From Escherichia coli (GTDB lineage Bacteria > Pseudomonadota > Gammaproteobacteria > Enterobacterales > Enterobacteriaceae): a DNA stretch of 64,000 nt. Under the pieces are notes generated by a model. It made no database searches and was not told the origin of the DNA. It saw only the letters and a list, made by a program, of their open reading frames with translations. The stretch lies in assembly GCF_046105845.1 (NCBI RefSeq), contig NZ_CP151004.1; one strand, given 5' to 3'. A program made the translations under genes and the position numbers. Positions 45,038 to 64,000 of this stretch are shown here, in pieces (the stretch's first letter is position 1; each line of letters starts with the position of its first letter).

Positions 45038-46804
45038 ATGAACACCACACTAACACCCGCAGATCTCGATCCCCGTCGGCAGGCCATGCTGCTGTACTTT
45101 CAGGGATACCGCGTAGCCCGCATTGCTGAAATGCTGGGCGAGAAAGTTGCAACCGTTCACAGCTGGAAAAAACGCGACAAGTGGAGTGACTATGGGCCGC
45201 TGGATCAGATGCAGCTCACCACCGCCGCACGCTACTGCCAGCTCATTATGAAGGAGCACAAAGAAGGGAAAGATTTCAAAGAGATTGACCTGCTGGCGCG
45301 CCAGTCGGAGCGCCATGCGCGGATCGGCAAGTTTAACAATGGCGGCAACGAAGCCGACTTAAACCCTAACGTTGCCAACCGCAACAAAGGCCCGCGCCGT
45401 CAGCCGGAAAAGAACGTTTTCACCGATGAACAGATTGAGAAGCTGGAAGAAATCTTCCATTCCTCCATGTTCAACTACCAGCGCCACTGGTGGGAAGCCG
45501 GAAAAACCAACCGCATCCGCAACCTGCTGAAGTCACGCCAGATCGGCGCGACCTTCTATTTTGCCCGTGAAGCCCTGATTGACGCCCTGCTAACCGGGCG
45601 TAACCAGATTTTCCTTTCCGCCAGCAAGGCACAGGCCCACGTCTTTAAGCAGTACATCATCGACTTCGCCAAAGAAGTGGAGGTGGAGCTGAAAGGCGAT
45701 CCGATGGTGCTTCCTAACGGGGCCACGCTGTACTTCCTCGGCACCAATGCCCGCACGGCCCAGAGTTACCACGGCAACCTGTATCTGGATGAATATTTCT
45801 GGATACCGAAATTCCAGGAGCTGCGCAAAGTGGCTTCCGGTATGGCTATTCACAAGAAATGGCGACAGACCTATTTTTCCACGCCATCCAGTCTGACACA
45901 CAGTGCTTATCCGTTCTGGTCCGGTGCGCTGTTCAACCGTGGGCGCAACAGAGCCGATAAGGTGGACATCGACCTGTCCCACAGCAATCTGGCCCCCGGC
46001 CTGCTGTGCGCAGACGGGCAATACCGCCAGATAGTCACCGTGGAAGATGCGGTGCGCGGCGGCTGTAACCTGTTCGACCTTGACCAGTTGCGCATGGAGT
46101 ACAGCCCTGACGAATACCAGAACTTGCTGATGTGCGAGTTCGTGGACGATCTCGCGTCCGTGTTCCCGCTCAGCGAATTGCAGGCGTGCATGGTGGACAG
46201 CTGGGAAGTCTGGACCGACTTTCATGCACTGGCCCTGCGCCCGTTTGGCTGGCGCGAAGTGTGGATCGGTTATGACCCGGCAAAAGGTACGCAGAACGGC
46301 GACAGCGCCGGATGCGTGGTGGTGGCACCGCCAGCCGTGCCAGGCGGTAAGTTCCGCATTCTTGAGCGTCACCAGTGGCGCGGAATGGACTTTCGCGCCC
46401 AGGCTGACGCCATCAAAAAACTGACCGAACAGTACAACGTGACCTATATCGGCATCGACTCAACCGGCGTTGGTCACGGGGTTTACGAGAACGTGAAAGC
46501 GTTTTTTCCTGCCGTCCGGGAGTTTGTCTACAACCCCAACGTTAAAAACGCCCTGGTACTCAAGGCCTACGACATTATCAGCCACCGCCGTCTTGAGTTT
46601 GACGCCGGGCACACCGACATTGCGCAGTCATTCATGGCAATCCGTCGCGCCACCACCGCCAGCGGCAACCGCCCGACCTATGAAGCCAGCCGCAGCGAAG
46701 AAGCCAGCCATGCCGATCTGGCCTGGGCAACAATGCACGCACTGTTTAACGAACCACTGCAGGGCGAGTCCGCCAATACCAGCAATATTGTGGAGATTTT
46801 TTGA
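45038..46804 (+). CDS. P: terminase large (ATPase) subunit (P2 gpP-like)
   Basis: 588 aa, divergent from O. Confidence 0.9.
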   Translation: MNTTLTPADLDPRRQAMLLYFQGYRVARIAEMLGEKVATVHSWKKRDKWSDYGPLDQMQLTTAARYCQLIMKEHKEGKDFKEIDLLARQSERHARIGKFNNGGNEADLNPNVANRNKGPRRQPEKNVFTDEQIEKLEEIFHSSMFNYQRHWWEAGKTNRIRNLLKSRQIGATFYFAREALIDALLTGRNQIFLSASKAQAHVFKQYIIDFAKEVEVELKGDPMVLPNGATLYFLGTNARTAQSYHGNLYLDEYFWIPKFQELRKVASGMAIHKKWRQTYFSTPSSLTHSAYPFWSGALFNRGRNRADKVDIDLSHSNLAPGLLCADGQYRQIVTVEDAVRGGCNLFDLDQLRMEYSPDEYQNLLMCEFVDDLASVFPLSELQACMVDSWEVWTDFHALALRPFGWREVWIGYDPAKGTQNGDSAGCVVVAPPAVPGGKFRILERHQWRGMDFRAQADAIKKLTEQYNVTYIGIDSTGVGHGVYENVKAFFPAVREFVYNPNVKNALVLKAYDIISHRRLEFDAGHTDIAQSFMAIRRATTASGNRPTYEASRSEEASHADLAWATMHALFNEPLQGESANTSNIVEIF

Positions 46805-47832
46805 TGGGAAAGAGTAAGAAGAACCGCGCTGCGGCGACGAAACAGATCCAGCATAAAAACCAGACTTCAGCCGAAGCATTCAGCTTCGGTGATCCCGTTC
46901 CTGTTCTGGACCGCCGCGAACTGCTGGACTATGTGGAATGCGTACAGATGGACCGTTGGTATGAGCCACCAGTGAGTTTCGACGGCCTGGCGCGAACCTT
47001 CCGCGCCGCCGTACACCACAGCTCACCGATTGCAGTAAAGTGCAACATTCTGACCAGCACCTATATCCCTCACCCGTTGCTCAGCCAGCAGGCTTTTTCA
47101 CGTTTTGTGCAGGACTATCTGGTATTTGGTAATGCCTACCTGGAGAAACGCACGAACCGCTTCGGTGAAGTTATCGCCCTTGAACCTGCCCTGGCAAAAT
47201 ACACTCGACGCGGATTAGACCTGGATACCTACTGGTTTGTGCAATACGGTATGGCAACCCAGCCGTATCAGTTCACGAAAGGCAGCATCTTTCATCTGAT
47301 GGAACCGGATATTAATCAGGAGATCTACGGCCTGCCTGGCTATCTTTCTGCTATTCCATCCGCTCTGCTCAACGAGTCCGCCACGCTGTTCCGCCGGAAG
47401 TATTACATTAACGGCAGTCATGCAGGCTTCATCATGTACATGACCGATGCCGCGCAAAACCAGGAAGATGTGAACAACCTCCGCAACGCGATGAAAAGCG
47501 CCAAAGGTCCGGGCAATTTCCGCAACCTGTTTATGTACTCGCCTAACGGCAAAAAAGATGGCATTCAGATTATCCCGTTATCGGAAGTCGCGGCGAAGGA
47601 TGAGTTTTTGAATATCAAGAACGTGAGCCGGGACGACATGATGGCAGCACACCGTGTGCCGCCACAAATGATGGGGATTATGCCTAATAATGTTGGGGGA
47701 TTTGGGGATGTGGAGAAGGCGAGCTTGGTCTTTGTTCGTAATGAACTGATTCCTTTACAAAAAAGACTGATGGAAGTAAATGTCTGGCTCAATGAAGAAG
47801 TGATTGTATTCAATAGATACATTTTAGAGTAA
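46801..47832 (+). CDS. Q: portal protein (P2 gpQ-like)
   Basis: 343 aa. Confidence 0.9.
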   Translation: MMGKSKKNRAAATKQIQHKNQTSAEAFSFGDPVPVLDRRELLDYVECVQMDRWYEPPVSFDGLARTFRAAVHHSSPIAVKCNILTSTYIPHPLLSQQAFSRFVQDYLVFGNAYLEKRTNRFGEVIALEPALAKYTRRGLDLDTYWFVQYGMATQPYQFTKGSIFHLMEPDINQEIYGLPGYLSAIPSALLNESATLFRRKYYINGSHAGFIMYMTDAAQNQEDVNNLRNAMKSAKGPGNFRNLFMYSPNGKKDGIQIIPLSEVAAKDEFLNIKNVSRDDMMAAHRVPPQMMGIMPNNVGGFGDVEKASLVFVRNELIPLQKRLMEVNVWLNEEVIVFNRYILE

Positions 47833-47862: not shown

Positions 47863-49287
47863 TTACTTACGTGTTTCAACTATATTCAGCCCCTTATAAA
47901 GGCTTTGATGGATATATACAGAACCAGTATTTGGCAACATTAAATCAGCATCTTCACATCGGAATCTAGCCGTACCGGAATTGCCCAACCGGACACCAAT
48001 CACAGAAGCATTAAATAGAGTTTTCATCAATTCACGAGAAGTATAGCGCTTACAAAGGTCAGGCGCTTTCTCTTCAATCTTACTGATGAATTCTTCTGTA
48101 GAATTATATCTATGCTGCGTCTGACGTAAAGATTCCAATAGCTCACCAAAATGAGGGTAGAGCCTTTTGTATTCTTGTTTTAAGTCCTCAACTTTCCAAG
48201 CGCTGTACCGTTCTTCAGCTATTCTAATTATATCCTTTTTTATTTCAGAAGCATTAGCATCACAGCGTTTTTGGCATTCTTGCAAAAACTGAATAACTTC
48301 TCTTGGGCGCAAAAATGTGCGCTTCACCAAATAGTTAAACGGTGAAATACTCCCTCTCATTTCACCTTCCTCAAAAATATCATCTATAGTTATATTTTCC
48401 GGCAATCTGGCGTTCACCATATCTTTCAACAACTCTGGTGTCCAGATTATTTCTTCTTCAATTGCTCGGTGTTTATCTTTATCATCAAATTCCAGCCCTT
48501 GATAAATATCAGAGCGTAAAAATGTTACAATATGAATACCTTTGGCTCTAGTATCAGAATAACTATCATTAATATCTTTTGTTGCCTTCAACAAGCCAAT
48601 CAAAAGGCTTTTGGCATCATCCGATCCATCCCAAGAATCATCTAATCGATCAGTGGCAATTAGCACCCCAATATCTGTACAAATTTCTTTAAGCTCGTCA
48701 AGGATGATTTTTATTATTTGAGGTGTCAATGGTGCTTGCGAAGCATCCTTATTAAACCCCACAGCATATCCGAAAGCCTCAAAATTGAATGAACTTAATC
48801 CCGAGAGTAACTTCCTTGCAGTTCCCAAAGTAGTTGGCGATATACCACCATAGTTATCAGAAACAAATTTTTTAATTCTAGCAAGGGCCTCCCGAGGTCT
48901 TTTCTCTGAAAATTGCCTACCTGACCTAATAATTTCTGCCGCAGCCTCAACAGCTATTGCAAATTTCCAAGCATTACAATGTGCCTGTTCGGGTAACAAC
49001 CCTTGCTCTTGATATTGTTTTAATGCTCCCCAAGCATACTGGTCTGGGGTCATGACATTTACGATAACGTCCTGCCCATATTTTGCTCTTACCAACCTTG
49101 GGAGTTGGGTAAAGATGGATGATTTCCCAGCCCCCTTTCTTCCAAGAAAATGGGCACTATAGAAACTCAGAGCTTGCTCAACTTGAGGAGTATTGATGAA
49201 ATAATCAGCCAACCTTCTATCAGCTTCAGCATCGACAGTACCAAAGTTGAGTCCCTTAACTGTAAGGCCTAACGCATCTAACCGCAC
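47863..49287 (-). CDS. P-loop NTPase of unknown family; accessory cargo between portal gene and cos
   Basis: 474 aa, GTG start with AAGGA RBS; Walker A GRKGAGKSS; possible Walker B LIATDRLDD; AT-rich by eye. Confidence 0.6.
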   Translation of the reverse strand: MRLDALGLTVKGLNFGTVDAEADRRLADYFINTPQVEQALSFYSAHFLGRKGAGKSSIFTQLPRLVRAKYGQDVIVNVMTPDQYAWGALKQYQEQGLLPEQAHCNAWKFAIAVEAAAEIIRSGRQFSEKRPREALARIKKFVSDNYGGISPTTLGTARKLLSGLSSFNFEAFGYAVGFNKDASQAPLTPQIIKIILDELKEICTDIGVLIATDRLDDSWDGSDDAKSLLIGLLKATKDINDSYSDTRAKGIHIVTFLRSDIYQGLEFDDKDKHRAIEEEIIWTPELLKDMVNARLPENITIDDIFEEGEMRGSISPFNYLVKRTFLRPREVIQFLQECQKRCDANASEIKKDIIRIAEERYSAWKVEDLKQEYKRLYPHFGELLESLRQTQHRYNSTEEFISKIEEKAPDLCKRYTSRELMKTLFNASVIGVRLGNSGTARFRCEDADLMLPNTGSVYIHQSLYKGLNIVETRK

Positions 49288-49372
49288 GATAATTCCTTAA
49301 TTGGTAAACTAAATTTGAACTTGATGCCAACAAAGATAATATCAATTTAATTAAAAAGAAAGCTGTTGCGCG

Positions 49373-49393
49373 CGCTCGTATCCCCGCCACGCC
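49373..49393 (-). other. P2/186-type cos site
   Basis: Reverse strand reads GGCGTGGCGGGGATACGAGCG, cf. remembered P2 cohesive end GGCGAGGCGGGGAAAGCAC. Confidence 0.55.
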
Positions 49394-49772
49394 TGCCCGC
49401 TTTATGCAGTGGTTTTCATGCACATGCATGACATGAGCAAAAGCCCGCCAGTTCTGGCGGATCTGAGCAAAGACGATCCTCAATCGATCATGCGATTTCA
49501 TGCAGCATAGTCATGCACTGTCAAAGAAGTAAAAATCCGTATCTGAATGGCCACTTGAAAAACGGATCATACGGGTTTACAAAGATGAATGTTCGCTGTG
49601 AACGGGAAGCGGAAGTTAACTTTCAGATAACATAATCCATATGCACGAGAACCTCTAAAATAGAATGGGACACCTAAGCGGGGTACTTACAACGATTCTT
49701 TCCATATTCACAGTTAACACTCTGTTTGGCGTATTTTTATTCAAATAGCAAACACCAATAAAAGGAGTTTCC

Positions 49773-50108
49773 ATGAACAATATTCCCCCTATACCACAGT
49801 TAGGAATTTATGTCTCAAAAATCGATCCCACCCTACGTATCACTGTAACCGATGTTGATATTGTTGATGGTGAGGATGATTCTCCTGATGATGAATTGTT
49901 TTATTTAGTCCACTGGATCGAGGGGGAAGATGAAAGTGATATGACAGCAATGGGATTTGAGCTAGACCCAGTAGAGTGGCAGGCTTTCGTTGAATCTGAG
50001 CAATTAGTGTTTGAGCGTGATCCGTACATGGATTCAATCCCCGAAAATTCAAACTTGGCAAAGATTCGGGATTTTCTCATGAAGACTAAACAGAATGATC
50101 ATTCGTAA
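49773..50108 (+). CDS. hypothetical acidic protein
   Basis: 111 aa, D/E-rich, no motif recognised. Confidence 0.4.
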   Translation: MNNIPPIPQLGIYVSKIDPTLRITVTDVDIVDGEDDSPDDELFYLVHWIEGEDESDMTAMGFELDPVEWQAFVESEQLVFERDPYMDSIPENSNLAKIRDFLMKTKQNDHS

Positions 50109-50300
50109 GTGTAAGCATCCATCAGGAAAATGGTTTTGTAAGTGAATCATCAACTTTTAGAGAGTCTCAGACACTCCCACTTCTGCTTCTGACACAAAGC
50201 GGACGATCACTTATCAAAATAACCGCCCACCTTACGCCTTATTTCACTCATTGCCCAAACTAGCCCCCATCAGAATGAATCCTCCTGGGGGCAACATTTC

Positions 50301-50534
50301 TTAATGCAGCCAGCTGTCGTCCTCCCACACCTTCTGCATAATTTTCATCACTTGTTTTCTTTCTTCATCCAGTTGCAGTCCGGTTAGTTCCACACCGTTA
50401 GAGCTACCTTTGCGAATGCGAATTACCGTTTTGGGATACAGGGGGCGCAGATTGCGGTAAAGCTCGGATTCAAGGGCGTCCAGGGTAGACTGGCTAATCT
50501 TCTGCTCTTTATCGATCATTATTTCAATGCGCAT
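50301..50534 (-). CDS. DinI-like protein (C-terminal module of a Tum-type antirepressor)
   Basis: ORF 50301-50606; MRIEIMIDKEQ...KVWEDDSWLH DinI fold signature. Confidence 0.7.
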   Translation of the reverse strand: MRIEIMIDKEQKISQSTLDALESELYRNLRPLYPKTVIRIRKGSSNGVELTGLQLDEERKQVMKIMQKVWEDDSWLH

Positions 50535-50544
50535 AAAAGTCACC

Positions 50545-50733
50545 TCAGCTGATGACATCCATTGAGCGGTTGTATTCGTGGCTTCTGATTTTTGCCATGA
50601 GTTCATCAGTCAATTCAGAAACCCACTGCAGAGCCAGCCCCTTCTCTTCATCACTACACTCACTAGCCGCTACAAGCTTAAGAAAAAAATCAATGCGCTG
50701 GAGCTTCAAAGACTCCAAAAAATAGTCCTGCAT
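50545..50733 (-). CDS. small protein upstream of DinI-like gene (Tum N-terminal-like position)
   Basis: 62 aa; LexA box in its promoter. Confidence 0.45.
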   Translation of the reverse strand: MQDYFLESLKLQRIDFFLKLVAASECSDEEKGLALQWVSELTDELMAKIRSHEYNRSMDVIS

Positions 50734-50885: not shown

Positions 50886-53300
50886 TTAATATAGGTTCCG
50901 CCACTTATCATCTTCCTTCAGACGCTGGTTCCGATAGAAGATACGCAGGCCTGCTCCTGACGGAATACTGCCGCCGCGAAGGAGCAAATCGACTTCTTTC
51001 TCGCTGCCATCAAATCCCCTGGACTTCAGTTCATAGACGAGCTGCTGTCGCTGATGGTCTGTAATTCGCTGTTTGTAGTCTTTACGCCGTTTCGGTTTCA
51101 CCTGGCGTAACCTTGCAGCCAGTTCCCGGCGCTCTTTTTTGCTCATACTGTGCAGGTAATCGTGCAACTCCTTGTCATTCATACGGGTAATATCCGTTCT
51201 GGAGTCCGCATCAGCTGATTTGTCTTTCCCTTGTTGGTTCAAATTTTCAGCAAGGGGACAGTTATTGCCACGAGTCCAAGGGGCGCAAGCGCCCTGGTCG
51301 GCTGCCGCCTCCTGAACGTCAACGACCTTACGAACCATTTTCCATTTCATTGCATGAGTGCAGATCTTGCCCTGTACAATGGGTGACCAGATGCCATAAA
51401 TACGAATACCGTGATCGCCATAAGCGGTCGGCTCTTCGTTAATTTCATAAGCTGTTCTGATAAGGTGATATTTGCGGGGAACCAGTACGCCGCCCTGCTT
51501 CATGATGTAGGTGGCAAAACAGCCAGCATCAGCGGCAGCCAGGATGGCATCAAGGCGCGGGTCATCCAGTACCGGCGCACCTGCTTTTTTGTCACCCTGT
51601 TGCCTTGCCGCCTGACCAGCCAGCAAGCGAAGTTCACGGTACGCCTGACGCCCCGGAATACCAAAGAAGCGGAACTGCTGAACACGATGCAGAGACGCCC
51701 AGGCATTAACGTATTCGGCGTTATCACGCAGGGATTTACCCGTTTCCTTGCTGATCTCGCCAGCCAGACCACGTCCGTCAATGTTCTTACTGATGTATTT
51801 CGCGATGTAGCTTGTCGGCGTTCCTTTGCGCGGGTTTATCAGCTCAGACTTAAAGCGTGGACCCGTGTTATTGCCCAGTTCCTCGCGGTCTTCACGGATG
51901 GCAAACTTACGCAACAATGCAGTAATGGCGCGGCGGTCTTTTTTGCGCATGAAACACATGAGATGCCAGTGCACAGTACCGTCATGGTGCGGCTCAGCCA
52001 CCCGCACGCCATACCAGCGCAACCCGGCTTTGTGCATAGCCTTACGAAATGCAGCAAACATGCCGACCAGATAATCGCTGCTTTGTCTTACCGTCGCATT
52101 TGTCCAGGTTGGGTTTGGTCTGCCGTTATTGAGCGTAGAATGGAAACGTGACGGACAGGTAATGGTGTAGAAAACGGCGCAGTCACCACGCATTTCCGCG
52201 ATAAGCTCCAGACCTTTAACACAGGCCATCATCTCATTGCGGCGGTGCGCCGGGTTGCTGCTGCTGGCGTTTACCACGTCTTCCATATCCAGCGTGTCGC
52301 CGTCTTCGTTCACCAGTTCATGAGAACGGAAAAACTCCAGCGACTTGCGGCGCTGCTCACGTTTATGCGTCACTGCTTCATAGCTGACATAGGGAGATGC
52401 TTTTTTGCTGACCAGGCAGACAGCACGCAACTGCTCTTCCCGCCATTCGCAACGTATCTTCCACAATTTTCGATACCACCAGTCGGCGCAAAGCATACGT
52501 GCCAGCGAACCCGGTATGAGTTCATAGGGCACGGGTTTGCGGCGGTTTCTTTTCCGACGGAGTTTCTCAAACGCAGGCGGGATAACATCCAGACGCAGGG
52601 TTTCCGCTGCCACCTTTTCCCATGTCTTGCGGATTTCTTCTGGCTTAACGTCATCGGTGGCATACAAATCACCACAAGCGGCCTCAAGACACATGCTCAT
52701 ATGCGCTGCTACCAAGGTGGACAGGCGTTTTACCTGATCCTGACTCATTTCAGGCAGGATCAGCAGGCCCTCAAGCCCTTGATGGCTTGCCATAAAACGG
52801 AAAGAAGCGGATAGCTGACTGTCGCGTACATACTCCAGTCGCTCCAGACATGACTTAATCGTCTCACGCAAATAGCGGGAATAAGCCTTTGGCCTGCCCA
52901 GGCTGCTGAAGTATTCGATACGTTGCATCAGCGGCTTGCTGATGTGGGTGGGCTGGGCGCTGACGTCCGCCAGAATGACCATGTCCGGGTTAAAACGCTG
53001 CTGCTCATGCGCCAGCTTTGCCCGACTAATGAGATTATCCTGCTCCATTTCGCGCTGGACAGGATCACGGGATTCATTAAAGAAATAACGCTCCCAGACC
53101 TGCTCACTCAGTGCATCGCGGCGCAGCTGTTCCTGCTCGTTATCGGCAGCGTACAGAGTGATCATGTTTGAAAGTGCAGACTCCGGCGCAACTTCCGCCG
53201 GGTCCAGATAAGGGTTAATGGCCTTTTTCGGGCCGTTCCATGAAAATGCTGCAGCGGCCTCGTTAAAGCCGCTAGAGTTGCTCATATCATCATGACTCAT
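50886..53300 (-). CDS. A: replication initiation endonuclease (P2/186 gpA-like)
   Basis: 804 aa; rolling-circle motif region HWHLMCF. Confidence 0.85.
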
Positions 53301-55020: not shown

Positions 55021-55184
55021 TGGTTCCCCCGTTTTTTCGTTGATAGTTCTGCCAGCAATTCATCTTGTGAACGGCACGGATGCCAGCGTTTACCATCCTC
55101 ACCCATGATCCAGCCGTGACCGTAGTGCATTGCCGGACTTTGTTTTACCAGCAGCGATGCAAATGATGGTTCTTTCGTCAGCAT
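54984..55184 (-). CDS. hypothetical early protein (186 fil position)
   Basis: ORF 54984-55214; start assumed at MLTKEP. Confidence 0.35.
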   Translation of the reverse strand: MLTKEPSFASLLVKQSPAMHYGHGWIMGEDGKRWHPCRSQDELLAELSTKKRGNQWLLKALRRLFH

Positions 55185-55191
55185 AAGCACC

Positions 55192-55707
55192 TCACAGCAA
55201 ACCGAATGAAGCACCGAGGCCAGTCACGGTATCAACTGCACTCGCCATCGCAGGATTAGCCTGTAAACGGGCCTGCAATGAAACAGCAGCCAGCGCCATC
55301 AGTCGTGTAACAGAGTTAATGCTGCTGATCGCATCACGACGGCCTGCACTGGTTTTTACATCGCCAGAAACCGCACCTGCCGCGACACGCCCTATCTCTG
55401 CAGTTGCACTCATGACGTAATGCGGCAGTTTCTCTTTTGCCACCTCATTAATCGGTACACATGGCAGGCAGTGAATCTGTGCCAGAAAGCCATCTACCAG
55501 CGTTGAATCTTCAGTCAGATCGGTAAGCAGCCAGATTTCTGGCGCATTGAGCTGATGCGGTTGATCTGGGTTGAGTTTGTTTCGCAGAGTCTGGACATTC
55601 ATTCCTGCACGTTCTGCCAGCTTCGCCATATTGTGACGAAGTGCAAAAGCTCTACAGGCTTCATCAAAATGCGGGTGTTTGGAAACTTGGTAATCAAACA
55701 TGGTCAA
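55192..55707 (-). CDS. cII: CII-type lysogeny establishment regulator (phage 186 CII-like)
   Basis: [45 protein letters not shown] closely matches remembered 186 CII. Confidence 0.85.
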
Positions 55708-55733
55708 TGCCTCTGATGTATTTCAGAATCGAA

Positions 55734-55955
55734 CTAATTAAGGTTTAGATTGCATTCTGAAAGCGCATCAACGGTCATGGCTGCTATGTTGATCATCACT
55801 TTTTCGCGTTTTTTATCTTTCCGCAGACGGTGACGGATAAGACGTCCATCAGCCAACATGTCATTGATAGTATCGATGGATAGCCCTGTCAGCTCGCTAT
55901 AACGTTCAATAGTCACATGAGGCGTGGTAAGAGTGATTGAAATGTTAGGTTTCAT
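55734..55955 (-). CDS. Apl/Cox-type excisionase/regulator
   Basis: 73 aa, first gene of the lytic operon, divergent from cI. Confidence 0.55.
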
Positions 55956-56080
55956 GATGCAACATTCCTCGTTTAATGTTGATTAATCAGGACGAATACG
56001 GATCGTTTGTATTTTGTGAACATCATAAACATACGATCGCATAATGAAATCGTCAAGACAAAAGTTCACTTGGAGTGACC
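55956..56080. promoter_or_regulatory. immunity switch region between apl-like gene and cI
   Basis: Intergenic; imperfect inverted repeat gatcgtttgtat...atacgatc (56001-56039). Confidence 0.4.
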
Positions 56081-56650
56081 ATGAATTTGGAGAAAGGCGG
56101 ACGAGGCGCTATAGAGCGCATGGTAGAAGCATATGGCTTCAAGACTCGACAGGCGTTGTGCGATCACTTAGGAATCTCTAAAAGTACTCTCGCCACACGC
56201 TATATGCGTGACTCATTCCCTGCTGAATGGGTAATCCAGTGCGCACTTGAAACGGGCGCCTCGCTTAACTGGCTCACGACCGGACATGGTTCAAAGCAAA
56301 CTTCAGGTAATACAAATACTATGGAAGTCGTTAAATATGTATTATCTGATGGAACCTTGCAGGAAGATGGTTTTTATATTTTCGATAAAGAATTTCTACC
56401 ATCTACGCTCAAAAATCCGTTTGTAATCACCGATAACAATTCCGTTTTTATTTGCGATAAAGAGTTTAACGATATTCGTGACGGCAAATGGGTAATAAGT
56501 ATTGATGCCGAAGTAACAATCCGCGATATCACTCGTTTACCTGGTGGAAGAATCTTAGTTGAAGGTGGAAATAGGGCTTTCGAATGTAAAAAAGAAGAAA
56601 TCGAAATTATTGGAAAAATTATAAGCATAACAGTTAAGTACTTTGAGTAA
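56081..56650 (+). CDS. cI: CI-type immunity repressor (186 CI-like)
   Basis: ATG at 56081 after GGAG; N-terminal HTH (…AYGFKTRQALCDHLGISKSTLATRY…) and CI-like C-domain. Confidence 0.75.
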   Translation: MNLEKGGRGAIERMVEAYGFKTRQALCDHLGISKSTLATRYMRDSFPAEWVIQCALETGASLNWLTTGHGSKQTSGNTNTMEVVKYVLSDGTLQEDGFYIFDKEFLPSTLKNPFVITDNNSVFICDKEFNDIRDGKWVISIDAEVTIRDITRLPGGRILVEGGNRAFECKKEEIEIIGKIISITVKYFE

Positions 56651-56700
56651 TATAGGAATGTTTTTATGCTTGGTAAAGCATTTGTTGTGGTGTAAAAAAT

Positions 56701-57624
56701 ATGTCAACTCAAAAATTAAAATTTAGCCATATCAAAAACGATCTGAAAGCAATAGTTATGCAGAATCGTGGAGGGCAAAAAGTTATTGAGCGTATACTCC
56801 TAGCCTATGGCTTCAAGTCACGACAGGCATTATGTAATCATCTAGGTATTTCCCAAAGTACTATGGCCAACAGATATGCACGTAATACCTTTCCTGCAGA
56901 TTGGGTTGTTATATGTTCCATAGAAACAGGAGCATCAATTGAATGGTTAGTTCTTGGTTCAGATACTGCTCCTTCATCAGAGCAATATTCTGAAAAACAT
57001 GCCGTTAATGGCCTTTGCAATGAAGTATACATTCCCACTATAAAGTTCGATAATGAAAAACTCATGAATTTTAACCGAGGGGGTAAGGCAACAATAGAAC
57101 GAATTGTCGAGGCTTACGGTTACAAAACGCGCCAAGCATTAGCTGATCACCTAGGTATTTCAAAAAGCACATTAGCCACACGATACATGCGTGACATTTT
57201 TCCTGCAGACTGGGTTTTGCAGTGTGCAATAGAAACGGGCCATTCTATTGAATGGATTTCATTTGGTACAGGAGAAATGAAAAACACAAAAAATAAAGAT
57301 ACTTTAACATTAGTGAAAAAAGTATTAATCAATGGCAAGTTAATAAATGATGGCTCATATTTATTTGACCCATGCTTTCTACCTTCCAATTTAAAAAATG
57401 CATTCGTAGTATCTACCGAAGACTCTGAATTAATATGTGAAATGGGTTTTAAAGATGTACATGATGGTAAGTGGCTAGTAAATATTGATGGAGAGAATTC
57501 ATTTAGAATGATAACTCGACTACCTAAAGGACGAGTTTATATTTCATCCCAAAATCACTCTTTTGAATGTTCGCTTACAGACATTGAGTTTATTGCAAAA
57601 GTTATTATAAGTTGTTTACATTAA
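56701..57624 (+). CDS. CI-repressor paralog with a duplicated N-terminal HTH domain
   Basis: 307 aa; two tandem copies of GG..IER...AYG.K.RQAL..HLGIS.ST.A.RY.R..FPA.WV, then a CI-like C-domain; AT-rich. Confidence 0.6.
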   Translation: MSTQKLKFSHIKNDLKAIVMQNRGGQKVIERILLAYGFKSRQALCNHLGISQSTMANRYARNTFPADWVVICSIETGASIEWLVLGSDTAPSSEQYSEKHAVNGLCNEVYIPTIKFDNEKLMNFNRGGKATIERIVEAYGYKTRQALADHLGISKSTLATRYMRDIFPADWVLQCAIETGHSIEWISFGTGEMKNTKNKDTLTLVKKVLINGKLINDGSYLFDPCFLPSNLKNAFVVSTEDSELICEMGFKDVHDGKWLVNIDGENSFRMITRLPKGRVYISSQNHSFECSLTDIEFIAKVIISCLH

Positions 57625-57649
57625 GTAAATTTTTCATGGAGACTTCATA

Positions 57650-59167
57650 GTGAAATGTGGTGATTGTAATTGGAACTGGGATGAAGAAACTACCTTTATA
57701 TTAGACGACGAAGAGGAAATTCTTTCCAAAGACAAACTTAATCGGAGACACTATGCAGAATATCTATATTTTTATCTTAAGGAAAAGGGGCAAAAGAACA
57801 ACACGGTAATCAACCTTAATGCAGAATGGGGAGCTGGTAAAAGTTTTTTCATAAAGAGATTTTATAACTCAATAAAAGATGCACACCCATGCGTTTACAT
57901 TGATGCCTGGAAGCAAGACTTTTCTGATGATGCATTTTTAACCCTTTTTTCTTCTTTGTCACAACAATTGCAAACATATGCAGGAAAACTTGATGCTCGA
58001 TTGATACAAAGCGGCCATGCTATCGGACGCTTTACAAAAGGTGTTCTACCTGAAATCATATCTGGCCTAATCAAGACTTATGCAGGAGTAGATAACGTAG
58101 GTGATATAGCCAAAGAAGCCTCATTAATAATGCTGAAGGAACACCAGGAAAAACTGAAGAGCATTAAGGTATTAAAAAAAGAACTAACGTTATGGTCTAG
58201 GTTGGCATATGAAAATAGTTTTTCATGTCCTATATTTATCTTTATAGATGAATTAGACAGATGCAGGCCAGATTATGCAATTTCTCTTTTAGAGATTGTT
58301 AAACATATATTCGATATTAAAAATTTTGTCTTTATTATTGCTACTGACACAGATCAATTACAACATTCAATCAAGAATGTTTACGGTAATGATTTTTCCG
58401 CAAATGACTATTTAGGCCGTTTTTTTCATAGAAGATTTACTTTAAAACAACCTGAACTTAAAGATTTAATTAATGGTGTTATTGGTGATTATATTGGTAC
58501 CGATTTTGAAAATATCACATCAAAAACATACCCACTAACAGCAACATTAGAAGACTTTTCAATAAATATTTCCAACGTATTTGAAGCATTTGGGTTAAAT
58601 CTAAGAGACTCAATCCGAAATACTGAAAGGTTAATAGACATTCTTAAATCTGATTTAGTCAAAAAGAAAGTAGATTATATTTTTATAATTTCGCTAATGA
58701 TTATATATGATAAGGATCGTCAAATTATAGATGGACTAATTGGTCGAAGAAATGCAGCACAACGTTTCACTGATTCGATAAAGCAAAGCTCCAATTTAAA
58801 AGGTGTTTCTCAAGCCATCCTTGAATTAAATCTTGATACAAATCAGCAAAGAATAGGTGTCAATTATATCTATAGAACGGCGAGCAGTAGATTATTCATC
58901 TCACAGATCGAGCCCAAAATAAATTTAACATTAATAAATTACTTAGATGTTGCATTGTATTTTATTAATAATATAAACATGCTTAAATCAAGTATAAAAA
59001 ACAATGGGCAAAATTCACTAATGATTATATCTCAACAAGGCCCTATTGATGGTGATACAGCTATAAAGTATTTGCAAGGAGCCCTTATAGAGAATGGTCT
59101 GAATACATCTTTTTATGCCTTACATAATTACATTGAATTAATTGAACTGGCCACATCATTTGATTAA
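57650..59167 (+). CDS. KAP-family P-loop NTPase
   Basis: 505 aa, GTG start after GGAG; Walker A NAEWGAGKS; Walker B IFIFIDELDRCRPDY; AT-rich by eye. Confidence 0.7.
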   Translation: MKCGDCNWNWDEETTFILDDEEEILSKDKLNRRHYAEYLYFYLKEKGQKNNTVINLNAEWGAGKSFFIKRFYNSIKDAHPCVYIDAWKQDFSDDAFLTLFSSLSQQLQTYAGKLDARLIQSGHAIGRFTKGVLPEIISGLIKTYAGVDNVGDIAKEASLIMLKEHQEKLKSIKVLKKELTLWSRLAYENSFSCPIFIFIDELDRCRPDYAISLLEIVKHIFDIKNFVFIIATDTDQLQHSIKNVYGNDFSANDYLGRFFHRRFTLKQPELKDLINGVIGDYIGTDFENITSKTYPLTATLEDFSINISNVFEAFGLNLRDSIRNTERLIDILKSDLVKKKVDYIFIISLMIIYDKDRQIIDGLIGRRNAAQRFTDSIKQSSNLKGVSQAILELNLDTNQQRIGVNYIYRTASSRLFISQIEPKINLTLINYLDVALYFINNINMLKSSIKNNGQNSLMIISQQGPIDGDTAIKYLQGALIENGLNTSFYALHNYIELIELATSFD

Positions 59168-59229
59168 AAGCATTGTTTGAATAAACTAAACCATACATTG
59201 ACCACTGGTCAAACATACAGTTAAATTTA

Positions 59230-59248
59230 GCCCTCTGATATGAGGGCT
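59230..59248 (+). terminator. hairpin plus T-tract after the KAP gene, abutting the int start
   Basis: gccctc-tgatatg-agggct then TTTATT, then ATG of int. Confidence 0.55.
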
Positions 59249-59253
59249 TTATT

Positions 59254-60306
59254 ATGGCAGTACGAAAACTCACCACAGGAAAATGGCTTTGCGAATGTTA
59301 CCCCGCCGGACGTAGTGGGCGTCGTGTGCGTAAACAATTCGCCACCAAAGGCGAAGCACTGGCTTTTGAGCGTCACACGATGGAAGAAACCGAAGCAAAG
59401 CCCTGGCTGGGTGAATCAGTGGATCGTCGAACACTGAAAGACGTGGTTGAGCTATGGTTCAAACTACATGGTAAATCTCTGACTGCTGGGCAGCATGTCT
59501 ATGACAAATTGCTGCTGATGGTTGACGCTCTGGGCAATCCCCTTGCAACTGATCTAACCTCTAAAATGTTTGCCCACTATCGAGATAAACGCCTGACAGG
59601 TGAGATCTACTTCAGTGAGAAATGGAAGAAAGGAGCAAGCCCGGTCACCATTAACCTGGAGCAAAGCTATCTAAGTAGTGTTTTTAGCGAACTATCCCGC
59701 CTGGGCGAATGGTCGTATCCGAACCCACTGGAGAACATGCGAAAATTCACCATCGCAGAAAAAGAGATGGCATGGCTTACCCATGAGCAGATTGTTGAAT
59801 TACTAGCTGATTGCAAACGTCAGGACCCAATTCTGGCACTGGTAGTTAAGATATGCTTAAGCACAGGCGCACGCTGGCGAGAAGCCGTAAATCTTACCCG
59901 CTCACAGGTGACCAAATACCGAATTACCTTTGTAAGAACGAAGGGGAAGAAAAACAGAAGCATCCCTATCAGTAAAGAGCTTTACGAAGAGATCATGGCG
60001 CTTGATGGGTTCAATTTCTTCACAGACTGCTATTTTCAATTTTTATCCGTGATGGAAAAAACGTCTATCGTGCTCCCTCGCGGTCAACTCACACACGTTC
60101 TGCGCCATACGTTTGCGGCGCACTTCATGATGTCGGGTGGAAACATTCTGGCTTTACAAAAAATTCTCGGACACCACGATATAAAAATGACTATGCGTTA
60201 CGCACATCTGGCACCGGATCATCTGGAAACGGCGCTCCGTTTCAATCCTCTGGCAACGCTGCCAAGTGGCGACAAAGTGGCGGCAGCGGTTGGCATTACC
60301 CCGTAA
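59254..60306 (+). CDS. int: tyrosine integrase (P2/186 Int family)
   Basis: MAVRKLTTGKWLCECYPAGRSGRRVRKQFATKGEALAFE; LSTGARW; HxLRH; terminal Y region MRYAH. Confidence 0.9.
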   Translation: MAVRKLTTGKWLCECYPAGRSGRRVRKQFATKGEALAFERHTMEETEAKPWLGESVDRRTLKDVVELWFKLHGKSLTAGQHVYDKLLLMVDALGNPLATDLTSKMFAHYRDKRLTGEIYFSEKWKKGASPVTINLEQSYLSSVFSELSRLGEWSYPNPLENMRKFTIAEKEMAWLTHEQIVELLADCKRQDPILALVVKICLSTGARWREAVNLTRSQVTKYRITFVRTKGKKNRSIPISKELYEEIMALDGFNFFTDCYFQFLSVMEKTSIVLPRGQLTHVLRHTFAAHFMMSGGNILALQKILGHHDIKMTMRYAHLAPDHLETALRFNPLATLPSGDKVAAAVGITP

Positions 60307-60442
60307 TAACCACCACTGACCACCAACCCAACTTATTGTTTTTACTCTAAGTTATTGTTTTCATTAACCCGTTTACATAAATGGGTAATTTGTATTGTTG
60401 AATAGCATCTGATGAGAAATTGATGCTAATATTATAAACATA

Positions 60443-60616
60443 CTAGATTAAATCAATCTTGATATCATAGCTTTCAAGACCAGTCATTTTTTCCCGTGCA
60501 GTAAACTGGATACTGGTAACTTCTTTCCCGGTCTTTTTCTTAAGCTCAATGATTTTTTTTGTTATATATTCAGAAATATCTGCTTCTGTTTTTGTTTTTA
60601 ACTCTTCAATGTTCAT
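60443..60616 (-). CDS. GnsA/GnsB-family small protein
   Basis: ORF 60443-60709; MNIEELKTKTEADISEYI...FTAREKMTGLESYD matches remembered GnsB. Confidence 0.7.
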   Translation of the reverse strand: MNIEELKTKTEADISEYITKKIIELKKKTGKEVTSIQFTAREKMTGLESYDIKIDLI

Positions 60617-60788
60617 CATTTCCTCTTTTAGTCTGTTATGACTTTCCTGGTACACAGTAGTGTCAATTATATGGAGCAAACGTATAAAAGATAAGATGAA
60701 ACATCGCAATAATCAACATACGACGGTCTAAATTTCACACAAACAGATAAAGATGATTATCATTTATTATCAATGCATTAGAATCAAA

Positions 60789-61019
60789 TCAATTCAAGAG
60801 TCTCATTGCTGCTTCCAGAATTTCTTCTGAAGTTACATGTCGATCCGCTGCTACATAAATGACTTTATGATCTCCGGTCAGAGATGGAAACCCTGCAGCC
60901 ATTACAGTGAGGTGTGTTGTTTCGCCATTTGGATATTCACGCATGATGGTGTTAACTCCGGTCATCACTGGCACTACCATTGCTGGTTCAGAGTTAAAAA
61001 AAACTATTATTTTTTTCAT
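60789..61019 (-). CDS. hypothetical small prophage protein
   Basis: ORF 60789-61058, internal ATG at 61019. Confidence 0.35.
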   Translation of the reverse strand: MKKIIVFFNSEPAMVVPVMTGVNTIMREYPNGETTHLTVMAAGFPSLTGDHKVIYVAADRHVTSEEILEAAMRLLN

Positions 61020-61290
61020 AATGTTACCGTAATATGTGAGTATCCATCGACTAGACACTAAGCAAAAAAGCTCCCGAAGGAGCCTTCATTTTCACTTTCT
61101 TAAATCTAACGACAGACGGCTAACATTTAAGTATTGTGAAATATTATCAAATGTAATCATCATTGATTTACAAAAGATACATTTTGCCCCGAAAGGATTC
61201 CTGTCAGAAACATCAAAAGATGATGTTCTATACTGAGAACCATGGCAACACGGGCATCTAAAGTGAATATGGTTTGTAATATTTTCTACC

Positions 61291-61503
61291 TCAAAGTGCC
61301 ACTACATGAACAGCCGCGGGGCCTTTAGGTCCGTTCTCAATACCAAATTCGACTTCCTGATTCTCAGTTAACGTTTTGAAATCGTTGCTCTGAATAACTG
61401 AGAAATGGACAAACACATCTTTGCTACCATCTTTCGGCGTGATGAAACCAAAACCTTTTTCAGGGTTAAACCATTTCACTAAACCAGTCATTTTGTTAGA
61501 CAT
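61291..61503 (-). CDS. CspA-family cold-shock protein (CspI/CspB-like)
   Basis: [23 protein letters not shown]...VHFSVIQ RNP motifs; long AT-rich leader. Confidence 0.9.
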
Positions 61504-61866
61504 CATTATTACCTTTTGAAGAAGTTAGCCCTTGGGCAGAATGGTCCGAAAAAAAATATCAGAGAGAAAAACCAACAAGGAGATCTCAAGAGGTACAAAT
61601 AATAAAATTATAACAATGACTGCTTCAGATAATTTTGTAACAAACCAGAACACCATTAACGCATGATTAACCAACCATAGCAAGGATTACTTTTGTAAAG
61701 AAAAACACACGAATGAAACAATAGCTTTATTTATTAATAAAACGTGTCATTCTGTCTAATGACCTTTTATCTTACCCTTAAGATTTCAAGGATTTTGACT
61801 CATGGAAGAGTCCTTTTTATTTAAATTTCACATTCAGCGCTAAAAATAATCCGATTTAATATTAAT

Positions 61867-62894
<1,028 letters not shown>

Positions 62895-63215
62895 GGATAT
62901 TTATCAGGATTTATCGGCTTCAAATCCCCGGATATGTTAAATCTTACCTCACCAGTGATGGGCACTGGCGGGAGGAGGATGTCAATCTGATAAACACAGA
63001 GGTGACTATGGATTACACAAATCTACCAAAACAAACTTTTGCTGATTTAATCGCACTCAGGCAAGCAGTCGTAGCTCTAATCAACTTGTTGCCGGAGAAG
63101 GAAAAGGAATTAGTTAAAGCGCTTCTTAACAGAACTGCCGCCGATTTTTCATCATATCCACTGACAGATGACCTTGCGGACCTTCCTGAATTAATTGCAG
63201 CGTCCGCCATTAAGC

Positions 63216-63767
63216 TTACTGAAGAGATTTACCCTCCTCAAAAATCTTCACAAAATTCCTGCGAGTAACTTCAATGCAATAATCGTAAAACGCCGCAAAC
63301 TGCTCATCGCGGCGTTTTTTTTCATCTTCAGAAGGGATCAGCACCGACAATTTTTTATTCAGATCAGCGACGCTGCCCTCCAGTTTTTCAATGGGCGATT
63401 CAATATCATCTTTTTCTGACCGCAATGCCGTCGGTGGCGTCTTCAGAGAACCAGTAATTCTTCCCGGTAGCTTTCCTTTGTAGGTTATCCACACATTCTG
63501 CGCCTCTAAAATTATGGGGCGCTTTTCCGGCGACTGCTCATCCCCTACACATAACCCGGCAGCAACATCCAGGAATACCTGTCTGATTCTCATTCTGGCT
63601 GCTGCCTCATAAAACTCCAGCGCGGCACCTTCAACACGGTCCAGCGAGATGTCCAGGTCAAAAATTTCACCGTCAAAGCGTTTTTTGTCCCGTAAGGCTA
63701 CAGTTACCGCCACTTTATTCTCAAAATTGCGGACTCCTTTCACAACCAGTTCATAGTCTTGTGTCAT
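63216..63767 (-). CDS. hypothetical protein inserted between holin and endolysin
   Basis: ORF 63216-63788 (TTG); ATG at 63767 with purine-rich RBS. Confidence 0.45.
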   Translation of the reverse strand: MTQDYELVVKGVRNFENKVAVTVALRDKKRFDGEIFDLDISLDRVEGAALEFYEAAARMRIRQVFLDVAAGLCVGDEQSPEKRPIILEAQNVWITYKGKLPGRITGSLKTPPTALRSEKDDIESPIEKLEGSVADLNKKLSVLIPSEDEKKRRDEQFAAFYDYCIEVTRRNFVKIFEEGKSLQ

Positions 63768-63771
63768 TGGA

Positions 63772-63987
63772 TTACTCTCTTCTCGCAACCTTACGCCTGT
63801 CTTCTTTAATCTTGAAATAAAGGTTTGTCAGATACGTCAGCAGGCCAAAAACCAGACTACCCAGCACACCGATTGCAGCCCACTGTGACGGAGTTACTTT
63901 ATCGAGTAACTGCAATGCCCAGAAACCAGCATTACCAGCCGATGTGCCATAGGCGATACCTGTTGTTAACTTATCCATTGATTTCAT
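63772..63987 (-). CDS. holin (EssD/EssQ-like)
   Basis: [26 protein letters not shown]...[14 protein letters not shown] matches remembered EssD. Confidence 0.85.
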
Positions 63988-64000
63988 ATCCTCACCCCGA

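What the first reader, a model, noticed from the sequence alone, without database searches (positions are those of the whole stretch)
56701..59167. AT-rich two-gene cassette (CI paralog with duplicated HTH + KAP-family NTPase) inserted in the cI-int lysogeny operon
A 186-like lysogeny operon normally runs cI then int. Here two extra co-oriented genes sit between them: a 307-aa protein with two tandem copies of the CI N-terminal HTH followed by a CI-like C-domain, and a 505-aa NTPase with KAP-type Walker A (NAEWGAGKS) and Walker B (IDELDRC). Both are markedly AT-rich against the phage backbone, so they look like acquired cargo expressed in the lysogen. The pairing suggests a sensor/regulator plus NTPase effector acting in superinfection exclusion or abortive infection; I do not recognise it as a named system.
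Basis: partly seen in the sequence, partly recalled or inferred. Interest (0 to 1): 0.85.

Follow-up and report, generated by a model that had tools for sequence, protein, structure and literature searches.

The report
Second phage repressor plus KAP defence gene
The two extra genes are real, but they are not a new two-part system: they are a recombinant piece of another 186-like phage's lysogeny operon, made of an intact second repressor of a common "double-HTH" class and a KAP ATPase already catalogued as an untested anti-phage candidate, sitting in a known prophage cargo hotspot.

Summary
Between cI (56075-56650) and int (59254-60306) lie a 307-aa protein with two CI HTH domains plus a CI C-domain, and a 505-aa KAP NTPase. 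Both are AT-rich.

The interpretation as a sensor/effector pair is not supported.
- The KAP protein matches PADLOC candidate PDC-S20 (E 9e-78).
- Homologues at 34-80% identity occupy the same cI-int slot in Klebsiella, Enterobacter, Serratia, Yersinia and E. coli prophages, behind an ordinary single-HTH cI.
- In related prophages the same slot holds Old nuclease, PDC-M11 or unknown genes.
- The double-HTH CI is a large family that serves as the sole repressor beside apl in about 62 of 79 sampled viral loci. None of these carries KAP.
- Tandem cI-cI2-KAP occurs only in one near-clonal lineage (16 of 5426 complete E. coli genomes).
- cI2 is a chimera: its N-half resembles double-HTH repressors, and its C-domain plus KAP are colinear with a cI-KAP module.
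- cI2 lacks its own switch region.

Best reading: two independent modules. KAP is a single-gene defence candidate. CI2 is probably a trans-acting heterotypic immunity repressor, or else a neutral relic. Interest is modest.

The parts
55192..55707 (-). cII-like (Phage_CP76) gene of the lytic operon
   Evidence: ORF; RefSeq annotation 'phage regulatory CII family protein' in E2348/69
55734..55955 (-). apl/cox-like gene, first gene of the lytic operon (type-1 allele)
   Evidence: ORF. Its position is conserved in all related loci. Its allele (WP_000804007) differs from the one that accompanies double-HTH repressors (WP_000188448).
55956..56074 (.). Resident lysis-lysogeny switch region (pR/pL and operators) cognate to the 191-aa CI. 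The candidate operator is the inverted repeat GATCGTTTGT-N18-ACATACGATC at 56001-56038.
   Evidence: Inverted repeat. It is unique in the window. Promoter-like hexamers on both strands at 56017-56056. Function is inferred.
56075..56650 (+). Resident immunity repressor cI (single HTH plus CI C-domain, 189-191 aa)
   Evidence: PHROG 4 transcriptional repressor; 92.8% DNA identity to cassette-free relatives; the gene lies next to the switch region
56659..56692 (+). Left recombination joint. The first 11 codons of a 63-aa ORF found in cassette-free relatives are retained. Homology to L002 ends at 56691, and homology to the double-HTH cI of 4LV2017 starts at 56693, 8 nt before the cI2 ATG.
   Evidence: blastn boundaries and three-way register print
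56701..57624 (+). cI2: an intact second repressor of the double-HTH class, made of NTD1 (56782-56967), a linker, NTD2 (57088-57282) and a CTD (57319-57606). It is a chimera. 56693-57268 is 79% identical to the 4LV2017/TUM2820 cI. From 57106 onward it is colinear (77%) with the cI-KAP-int module of a Klebsiella prophage.
   Evidence: Pfam; 186 CI structure 2FJR at E 9e-23; domain-wise BLAST; blastn
57650..59167 (+). Soluble KAP-family P-loop NTPase, PADLOC candidate PDC-S20. Walker A is at 57818-57844, Walker B at 58244-58264, and the Pfam KAP domain at 57743-58528. The C-terminal part (about aa 296-505) is variable.
59192..59253 (+). Conserved right flank of the cargo slot, upstream of int, with a terminator-like hairpin AGCCCTC-N6-GAGGGCT followed by a T-run at 59229-59248
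   Evidence: Homology to L002 and L003 resumes at 59192/59193; hairpin; the same hairpin is visible in L002 and L003
59254..60306 (+). Tyrosine integrase (P2/186 type)
   Evidence: PHROG 1 integrase, E 6e-75; 98-100% identical to int of sister prophages

Best explanation
Window 56692-59191 is not a dedicated two-gene system. It is the distal part (cI-KAP) of another 186-like phage's lysogeny operon, and recombination has placed it behind the resident cI, inside the known cI-int cargo slot.

SHOWN:
- The slot has fixed flanks: about 40 bp after the cI stop on the left and about 60 bp before int on the right.
- The slot carries alternative cargo in sister prophages: a 63-aa ORF, Old nuclease, PDC-M11, DUF4747 plus a hypothetical gene, and unknown genes.
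- KAP is one recurrent allele of this slot across Enterobacterales, normally directly behind a single-HTH cI.
- cI2 is a chimera. Its double-HTH N-half comes from the widespread class that normally is the sole repressor beside apl. Its C-domain is co-inherited with KAP.
- cI2 has no switch region of its own.

INFERRED:
- Both genes are read from the lysogenic promoter pL together with cI. The intergenic gaps are short, no enriched promoter or terminator signal lies between the genes, and a terminator-like hairpin sits just before int.
- KAP acts alone as an NTP-dependent sensor switch. Its conserved ATPase core resembles RADAR RdrA, BrxC and STAND-type ATPases, and its fast-evolving C-terminal domain would recognise a phage component. 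It would then block replication or cause abortive infection.
- CI2, having no cognate operators in its own prophage, acts in trans on the conserved 88-nt switch region of superinfecting double-HTH-class phages. These phages are common and use the same integrase and attB. This would give the lysogen a second immunity specificity.
For: Boundaries and chimerism. Slot alleles: (Old at E 6e-234; PDC-M11A/B). KAP in the same slot behind a single-HTH cI in Klebsiella (80% identity), a metagenome contig (71%), Enterobacter (63% and 38%), Serratia (52%), Yersinia (51%) and E. coli (34%). KAP kept intact beside decayed cI and int fragments in Pectobacterium, and solitary in Pseudoalteromonas. PADLOC PDC-S20. 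Fold. Double-HTH CI as sole repressor, never with KAP. The recognition helices of both CI2 HTH domains are identical or nearly identical to those of the double-HTH class. The switch region of that class is a conserved scaffold across 22 distinct sequences. No such scaffold or repeat arrangement exists anywhere in the 64-kb window. All ten compared copies keep cI2 and KAP intact. Literature: a cI-int hotspot was described in Vibrio P2-related phages (PMC9122126); an int-primase hotspot in P2-like prophages and a single-gene KAP system 'Reve' (bioRxiv 10.64898/2026.02.27.708500); KAP NTPases validated as defences, dependent on Walker B (PMC12632615).
Against: - No experiment exists for PDC-S20; PDC systems are explicitly untested candidates.
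- CI2's trans-immunity role rests on inferred operators.
- The helix SKST[LM]ATRYMRD of NTD2 is shared with the resident CI, so binding to resident operators cannot be excluded.
- cI2 has a weak Shine-Dalgarno sequence.
- Polymorphism in cI2 is too sparse to show purifying selection (3 synonymous and 6 non-synonymous changes).
- In another lineage (L011/L027) an accreted second cI has decayed, so such copies can be neutral.
- The identity of the CI C-domain tracks the identity of KAP across lineages. Linkage explains this, but a functional link is not formally excluded.
- Co-transcription from pL is inferred, not measured.
Confidence: 0.55

Rival explanations
1. Relic model. Only KAP is selected cargo. 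cI2 is a neutral by-product of the recombination that imported KAP, with the crossover inside or just upstream of a cI gene. It is still intact because the event is recent, and it has no role.
For: The lineage is near-clonal at 97-100% identity. pN/pS for cI2 is 0.55 on nine changes, so there is no clear constraint. The Shine-Dalgarno sequence is weak. L011/L027 carry int and cI remnants behind KAP, and Pectobacterium carries cI remnants, so extra cI copies do decay. KAP homologues work in the slot without any second cI.
Against: All 16 complete genomes and 5 IMG/VR copies keep a full-length cI2. This includes copies whose int has been swapped (96 nucleotide differences), so the block has spread by recombination while staying intact. 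Both HTH domains retain the family's invariant residues.
Confidence: 0.3
2. First reader's model. The double-HTH CI paralogue is a dedicated sensor or regulator of the KAP NTPase effector, and together they form a two-gene exclusion or abortive-infection system.
For: The genes are adjacent and co-oriented with a 25-bp gap. The C-domain of the upstream CI and KAP are co-inherited as a block over wide divergence.
Against: No double-HTH locus other than this lineage carries KAP (0 of about 62). No other KAP locus carries a double-HTH or second cI. KAP persists without an intact CI. CI relatives at 56% identity are followed by different cargo. PADLOC models the family as a single-gene candidate.
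Confidence: 0.05
3. Resident-switch modulator. CI2 acts on its own prophage. It could bind the resident operators through NTD2, form mixed oligomers with the 191-aa CI, or titrate the Tum-like antirepressor. Any of these would stabilise lysogeny or change the induction threshold.
For: The NTD2 recognition helix is identical to that of the resident CI. The two C-domains are 49% identical. TTCAC/GTGAC motifs occur in all switch types. A DinI/Tum-like gene is present at 50301-50606.
Against: The switch regions of the three repressor types differ in sequence and repeat arrangement. More than 1000 E. coli prophages with the same backbone and resident cI manage without cI2. There is no evidence of interaction.
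Confidence: 0.1

Closest known systems
PADLOC PDC-S20 (single-gene 'phage defence candidate', KAP NTPase)
   Same: Strong full-core HMM match (E 9e-78, profile positions 11-382 of 464). KAP_NTPase Pfam domain with intact Walker A and B. The gene stands alone functionally, judging by its variable neighbours.
   Different: PDC systems were nominated by guilt-by-embedding inside BREX, DISARM, RM and Hma loci and are untested. Here the gene is in a prophage lysogeny operon. The C-terminal ~120 residues lie outside the profile match and are poorly conserved.
Coliphage 186 CI repressor (PDB 2FJR/2FKD)
   Same: CI2 residues 131-302 align with full-length 186 CI (E 9e-23). The Pfam domains Phage_CI_repr and Phage_CI_C are the same.
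   Different: CI2 has an extra N-terminal HTH domain and a ~40-aa linker. It is the second gene of the operon, 626 bp from the switch region, and has no operator set of its own. Identity to 186 CI is low.
Double-HTH CI repressors of Klebsiella phage 4LV2017, the ST437-OXA245phi4.2 group and E. coli CFT073/TUM2820 prophages
   Same: Same NTD1-linker-NTD2-CTD architecture. Identity is 62% overall, about 75-82% in the HTH domains, with identical recognition helices.
   Different: Those proteins are the sole repressor, placed directly beside apl and a conserved 88-nt switch region, and none is followed by KAP. The CI2 C-domain comes from a different (single-HTH, KAP-linked) lineage, at 37-39% identity to theirs.
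Prophage defence hotspots of P2-like phages (Rousset et al. 2022; the cI-int hotspot of Vibrio K139-like phages; the int-primase hotspot of the 2026 preprint)
   Same: Fixed flanks and interchangeable cargo that includes known defences (Old, PDC-M11) and unknown genes.
   Different: The enterobacterial 186-type cI-int slot and its KAP allele are not specifically described in the papers I could read. This locus holds an accreted second repressor as well as cargo.
RADAR RdrA, PifA and QatA (other KAP-like defence ATPases)
   Different: There are no RdrB, QatB, QatC or QatD partners nearby. The NCBIfam QatA score is 43 bits against a cutoff of 600. PifA is 720 positions long and only its first 261 match. 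The protein is much shorter than RdrA (505 versus about 800-900 aa).

Membership tests
186-type CI repressor (Phage_CI_repr + Phage_CI_C) | N-terminal CI-type HTH domain (PF07022) | tested here: met
   Two copies, aa 28-89 (E 1e-25) and aa 130-194 (E 3e-27)
186-type CI repressor (Phage_CI_repr + Phage_CI_C) | C-terminal oligomerisation domain (PF16452) and similarity to the solved 186 CI | tested here: met
   PF16452 at aa 207-302, E 2e-25; 2FJR E 9e-23 and 2FKD E 9e-7
186-type CI repressor (Phage_CI_repr + Phage_CI_C) | [quoted passage not shown] | tested here: not met
   cI2 is the second gene, and the resident 191-aa cI holds the first position. Homology to double-HTH phages starts only 8 nt before the cI2 ATG. 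No type-2 or type-3 operator-like arrangement exists in the window.
186-type CI repressor (Phage_CI_repr + Phage_CI_C) | Sequence-specific operator binding and repression of pR | not testable with these tools
   Needs EMSA, reporter or immunity assays
Double-HTH CI subfamily | NTD1-linker-NTD2-CTD architecture, with NTD1 helix SQSTMANRYAR and NTD2 helix SKSTLA[TN]RYMRD | tested here: met
   Alignment of 16 family members, with invariant residues retained in CI2
Double-HTH CI subfamily | Association with the conserved 88-nt switch scaffold (GGCTTGTGGTGAGCC...TCGTGAC...CTTCACA...GGWTCRC) | tested here: not met
   The scaffold is present in 22 distinct type-2 loci and absent upstream of cI2 and elsewhere in the window
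KAP-family P-loop NTPase (PF07693) | KAP_NTPase profile match with Walker A GxxGxGK[ST] and Walker B hhhhDE(L)DR | tested here: met
   PF07693 E 7.5e-46. G61, G63, K64 and D200-E201-L202-D203-R204 are invariant in 41 homologues.
KAP-family P-loop NTPase (PF07693) | Transmembrane helices inserted in the NTPase domain. This is typical of many KAP proteins according to Aravind et al. 2004 (own knowledge) but is not universal. | tested here: not met
   Maximum Kyte-Doolittle score over a 19-residue window is 1.43, with no window above 1.6. The AF2 model shows a soluble helical insert at aa 95-188.
PADLOC PDC-S20 | Match to a PDC-S20 HMM over most of the profile | tested here: met
   PDLC04959 E 9.3e-78, protein aa 20-389 against profile positions 11-382 of 464. 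Three further PDC-S20 models match at E 2e-46 to 7e-26.
PADLOC PDC-S20 | Demonstrated anti-phage activity | not testable with these tools
   PDC systems are described as 145 untested candidates. No paper in the library mentions PDC-S20.
QatABCD | QatA equivalog score and neighbouring QatB, QatC and QatD genes | tested here: not met
   NCBIfam QatA scores 43 bits against a cutoff of 600. The neighbours are cI2 and int only.
RADAR | RdrA ATPase together with an adjacent RdrB adenosine deaminase | tested here: not met
PifA (F-plasmid T7 exclusion) | Full-length similarity to PifA | tested here: not met
   Only profile positions 15-261 of 720 match, E 1e-16

The most novel reading that the evidence does not exclude
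Two readings remain open.

(a) Stacked immunity. A temperate phage has captured an intact repressor of a rival immunity class (the double-HTH class). That class is common in the same hosts and uses the same integrase and attB. The phage expresses the captured repressor from its own lysogenic promoter without the matching operators. Its lysogens would then be immune to two immunity groups at once, while a single-gene KAP defence covers unrelated phages.

(b) A bolder variant. The co-inherited CI C-domain/KAP block reflects a functional link in which KAP guards the repressor, sensing its inactivation by an invader's antirepressor.

The probability given below refers to (a). I put (b) at no more than 0.07.
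Probability: 0.35. Interest if true: 0.5.

Novelty: new member of a known kind. Interest (0 to 1): 0.3.

Why it matters
If CI2 works in trans, this would be a clean natural example of a prophage widening its superinfection immunity by capturing a competitor's repressor. It would be simple to test in EPEC E2348/69, which carries the identical locus.

The locus also points to an experimentally untouched, phage-borne clade of soluble KAP NTPases (PDC-S20) that has held the cI-int slot of 186-like prophages across Enterobacterales. That clade is a ready candidate for defence assays.

Two side results may be more useful than the cassette itself. The first is a widespread, uncharacterised double-HTH version of the 186 CI repressor with a conserved 88-nt switch. 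The second is a defined cI-int cargo slot whose alleles include Old and PDC-M11 and several unknown genes.

None of this is a new kind of system.

Tried and rejected
- dN/dS on ten copies of the cassette: too few changes to decide (cI2 has 3 synonymous and 6 non-synonymous changes).
- Promoter scan of 55700-60500: 16 sites found against 16.6 expected, so there is no evidence for or against internal promoters. I did not settle the geometry of pR and pL.
- Literature: 'PDC-S20' returns no paper. Searches for two-repressor or heteroimmune prophages and for the E2348/69 P2-like prophage gave nothing specific. I could not check whether the published KAP system 'Reve' is homologous, because I found no sequence or accession for it in the main text.
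- Searches of the window for type-2 (TTCACAWAA-N11-TTCACAWAA) and type-3 (TCCAAAAG...CTTTTGGA) operator arrangements: none found. These operators are inferred from repeats, not known, so the negative result carries limited weight.
- I considered and rejected membership of QatABCD, RADAR and PifA (see the membership tests).
- I considered that conserved cI-KAP adjacency means functional coupling. I rejected this as the main reading because the slot is the only cargo position in the operon, cI relatives carry other cargo, and KAP survives without CI.
Full report
**Observation**

- the resident cI, 56075-56650 (191 aa);
- a second CI-like gene, 56701-57624 (307 aa), here called cI2;
- a 505-aa gene, 57650-59167;
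- int, 59254-60306.

All four lie on the + strand, separated by 50, 25 and 86 bp. Divergent from them are an apl-like gene (55734-55955) and cII (55192-55707).

Pfam confirms two Phage_CI_repr HTH domains and one Phage_CI_C domain in the 307-aa protein. It confirms a KAP_NTPase domain in the 505-aa protein. The quoted Walker A and Walker B strings are present, and their key residues are invariant in 41 homologues. GC falls to 0.28-0.40 across 56400-59200, against 0.43-0.56 nearby.

**Where the block begins and ends**

The same locus, at 97-100% identity, is present in 16 of 5426 complete E. coli genomes, including EPEC E2348/69. More than 1000 genomes carry the same cI and int backbone without the block.

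The comparison loci were a cassette-free relative (L002) and Klebsiella phage 4LV2017 (L003).
- Homology to L002 stops at 56691 and resumes at 59192.
- Homology to 4LV2017 covers 55029-55969, 56693-57268 and 59193-60393.
- The left joint cuts a 63-aa ORF of the cassette-free phage after 11 codons. It lies 8 nt before the cI2 start codon.
- The right joint lies about 60 bp before int. It is followed by a conserved terminator-like hairpin at 59229-59248.

**The 307-aa protein is an ordinary repressor type in an unusual place**

In 4LV2017 the only cI is a 313-aa protein with the same double-HTH architecture, 62% identical to CI2. The same holds for E. coli prophages in TUM2820, PCP07083, WCHEC035123 and CFT073. 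There, a 292-313-aa double-HTH CI sits directly beside apl as the sole repressor.

The family is large. It comprises dozens of 90%-identity clusters with hundreds of members in E. coli, Salmonella, Klebsiella, Enterobacter, Citrobacter and Edwardsiella.

A scan of IMG/VR with a family alignment returned 79 loci:
- about 62 have the order apl, double-HTH cI, variable cargo, int;
- five are the window's own lineage;
- no other locus has two intact cI genes.

The switch region of the double-HTH class is a conserved 88-nt scaffold, seen in 22 distinct sequences, with TTCACA-type direct repeats. That scaffold is not present upstream of cI2. No comparable arrangement occurs anywhere in the 64-kb window.

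**CI2 is a chimera**

The two halves of CI2 have different closest relatives.
- Its N-half (NTD1, linker, NTD2) is 75-82% identical to double-HTH repressors.
- Its C-domain is only 37-39% identical to theirs.
- Its C-domain is 58-66% identical to the C-domain of the single-HTH CI proteins that precede KAP homologues.

At the DNA level, window 57106-59400 is colinear at 77% identity with the cI-KAP-int stretch of a Klebsiella prophage. The crossover therefore lies in the conserved second HTH domain.

**The KAP NTPase is a recurrent single-gene occupant of the cI-int slot**

It matches PADLOC PDC-S20 at E 9e-78, and PifA and QatA only weakly. It fails the NCBIfam QatA cutoff by a wide margin (43 bits against 600).

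Homologues sit in the same slot of 186-like prophages, usually 0-60 bp after a single-HTH cI:

| Host of the prophage | Identity to the window's KAP |
|---|---|
| Klebsiella | 80% |
| A metagenome contig | 71% |
| Enterobacter | 63% and 38% |
| Serratia | 52% |
| Yersinia | 51% |
| E. coli | 34% |

Some ~50% homologues have one or two other genes between cI and KAP.

Two cases show that the gene persists without CI. In Pectobacterium it is intact while the flanking cI and int survive only as fragments. In Pseudoalteromonas a relative stands alone in the chromosome.

Conversely, CI proteins 56% identical to the back half of CI2 are followed by different cargo.

Cargo in sister prophages includes a full-length Old nuclease (PADLOC E 6e-234), PDC-M11A/B, and several genes with no PADLOC match. 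The slot is thus a defence-type hotspot of the kind already reported:
- between cI and int of Vibrio P2-related phages (PMC9122126);
- between integrase and primase of P2-like prophages (bioRxiv 10.64898/2026.02.27.708500).

**What the NTPase looks like**

- The AF2 model is confident (pLDDT 82).
- The protein has no transmembrane segment.
- The ATPase core is conserved (mean identity 59%), while the C-terminal ~125 residues are not (25%).
- No effector domain was recognised.

PDC systems are untested candidates nominated by guilt-by-embedding (bioRxiv 10.1101/2024.01.29.577857). Other KAP NTPases have been shown to defend in a Walker-B-dependent way (PMC12632615). A single-gene KAP system from P4 hotspots has also been reported.

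**How it most likely works**

Shown: the block is a recombinant second lysogeny module, and its two genes have independent distributions.

Inferred:
- Both genes are transcribed from pL with cI. The gaps are short, promoter-like sites are not enriched (16 found against 16.6 expected), and the only strong terminator-like hairpin lies just before int.
- KAP acts alone as a nucleotide-dependent sensor switch, with its variable C-terminus recognising a phage component.
- CI2 has both HTH domains of the double-HTH class, with identical recognition helices, but no cognate operators at home. It most plausibly represses incoming phages of that class.
- Those phages are common and share the integrase and attB, so they are direct competitors.

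**Caveats**

- The NTD2 helix is also identical to that of the resident CI, so action on the resident switch is not excluded.
- cI2 has a weak ribosome-binding site.
- Polymorphism is too sparse to show selection.
- Accreted cI copies have decayed elsewhere (L011/L027). The relic model therefore remains a serious rival.

**Comparison with known systems, and novelty**

Both genes belong to known families: the 186-type CI family, and KAP/PDC-S20. The hotspot type is known. QatABCD, RADAR and PifA membership fail on defining features.

What is unusual is lineage-specific: an intact heterotypic repressor stacked behind the resident one. I found no description of the double-HTH CI class, or of tandem cI, in the papers searched.

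I rate the finding as a new member of known kinds, with modest interest (0.3). The most novel reading still open is stacked immunity by repressor capture (probability about 0.35). A guard relationship between the CI C-domain and KAP is possible but unlikely (no more than 0.07).

Noticed in passing
L003-L007 and L057-L110 (for example L004 3921-4950); window 56701-57624: A large, apparently uncharacterised subclass of 186-type CI repressors has two tandem HTH domains. NTD1 carries a nearly invariant helix SQSTMANRYARD. These proteins are the sole repressor beside apl, with a conserved 88-nt switch region carrying TTCACA direct repeats 20 bp apart. This suggests a different operator geometry from 186 CI.
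   Followed up: partly
L005 4991-6760; L049 4073-6090; L004 4953-6609; L006 4949-5893; L007 4941-5912; L046 4073-5131: The cI-int slot of sister prophages carries alternative cargo: a full-length Old nuclease (PADLOC E 6e-234), PDC-M11A/B preceded by an 8xMP protein, DUF4747 plus a 201-aa protein, and 314-, 323- and 352-aa proteins with no PADLOC match. The unknown genes are candidate defence genes by position.
   Followed up: partly
L011 6599-7376 (same as L027 6099-6864): Behind KAP there is an N-terminal int fragment and fragments of a cI HTH and C-domain. These are followed by a second cargo set (8xMP, 357 aa, 125 aa) and then an intact int. This is evidence that whole lysogeny modules accrete in this slot and that the extra cI then decays.
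   Followed up: partly
L019 3222-5752 and L020 (Pectobacterium brasiliense chromosome): An intact KAP homologue (48% identity) and a 160-aa gene are flanked by frameshifted cI C-domain fragments and an int N-terminal fragment, between housekeeping genes. This looks like a domesticated remnant in which only the cargo survived.
   Followed up: partly
window 47863-50606: In the classical P2 hotspot between replication gene A (50886-53300) and the portal gene (46801-47832) lie three genes: a 474-aa protein (47863-49287, minus strand; PHROG 13260, unknown, no PADLOC hit), a 111-aa ORF (49773-50108; PHROG 17127, unknown) and a DinI/Tum-like 101-aa gene (50301-50606, minus strand). The 474-aa protein is an uncharacterised cargo candidate.
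   Followed up: partly
window 60381-64000: To the right of int the prophage abuts Qin cryptic-prophage DNA (ynfN, cold-shock gene, rzpQ, rrrQ, ydfR; 100% identity to many E. coli). In all 16 complete genomes with the cassette, the neighbour is rcdA instead. The two homologies overlap by about 13 bp (60381-60393). No complete E. coli genome in the collection has this junction, so it is either a secondary integration site, a rearrangement or an assembly join.
   Followed up: partly
L040 (NZ_JBRERE010000002.1, annotated as plasmid pE100181_149): One copy of cI-cI2-KAP lies on a 149-kb record annotated as a plasmid. Its int differs at 96 nucleotides from the window's int. This shows that the block has recombined into a different integrase background.
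   Followed up: no
window 59198-59248: A conserved TTGACC-N18-TAAATT promoter-like site and a terminator-like hairpin (AGCCCTC-N6-GAGGGCT plus a T-run) lie immediately before the int start codon. They are also present in L002 and L003. They may uncouple int expression from the cI-cargo transcript.
   Followed up: no
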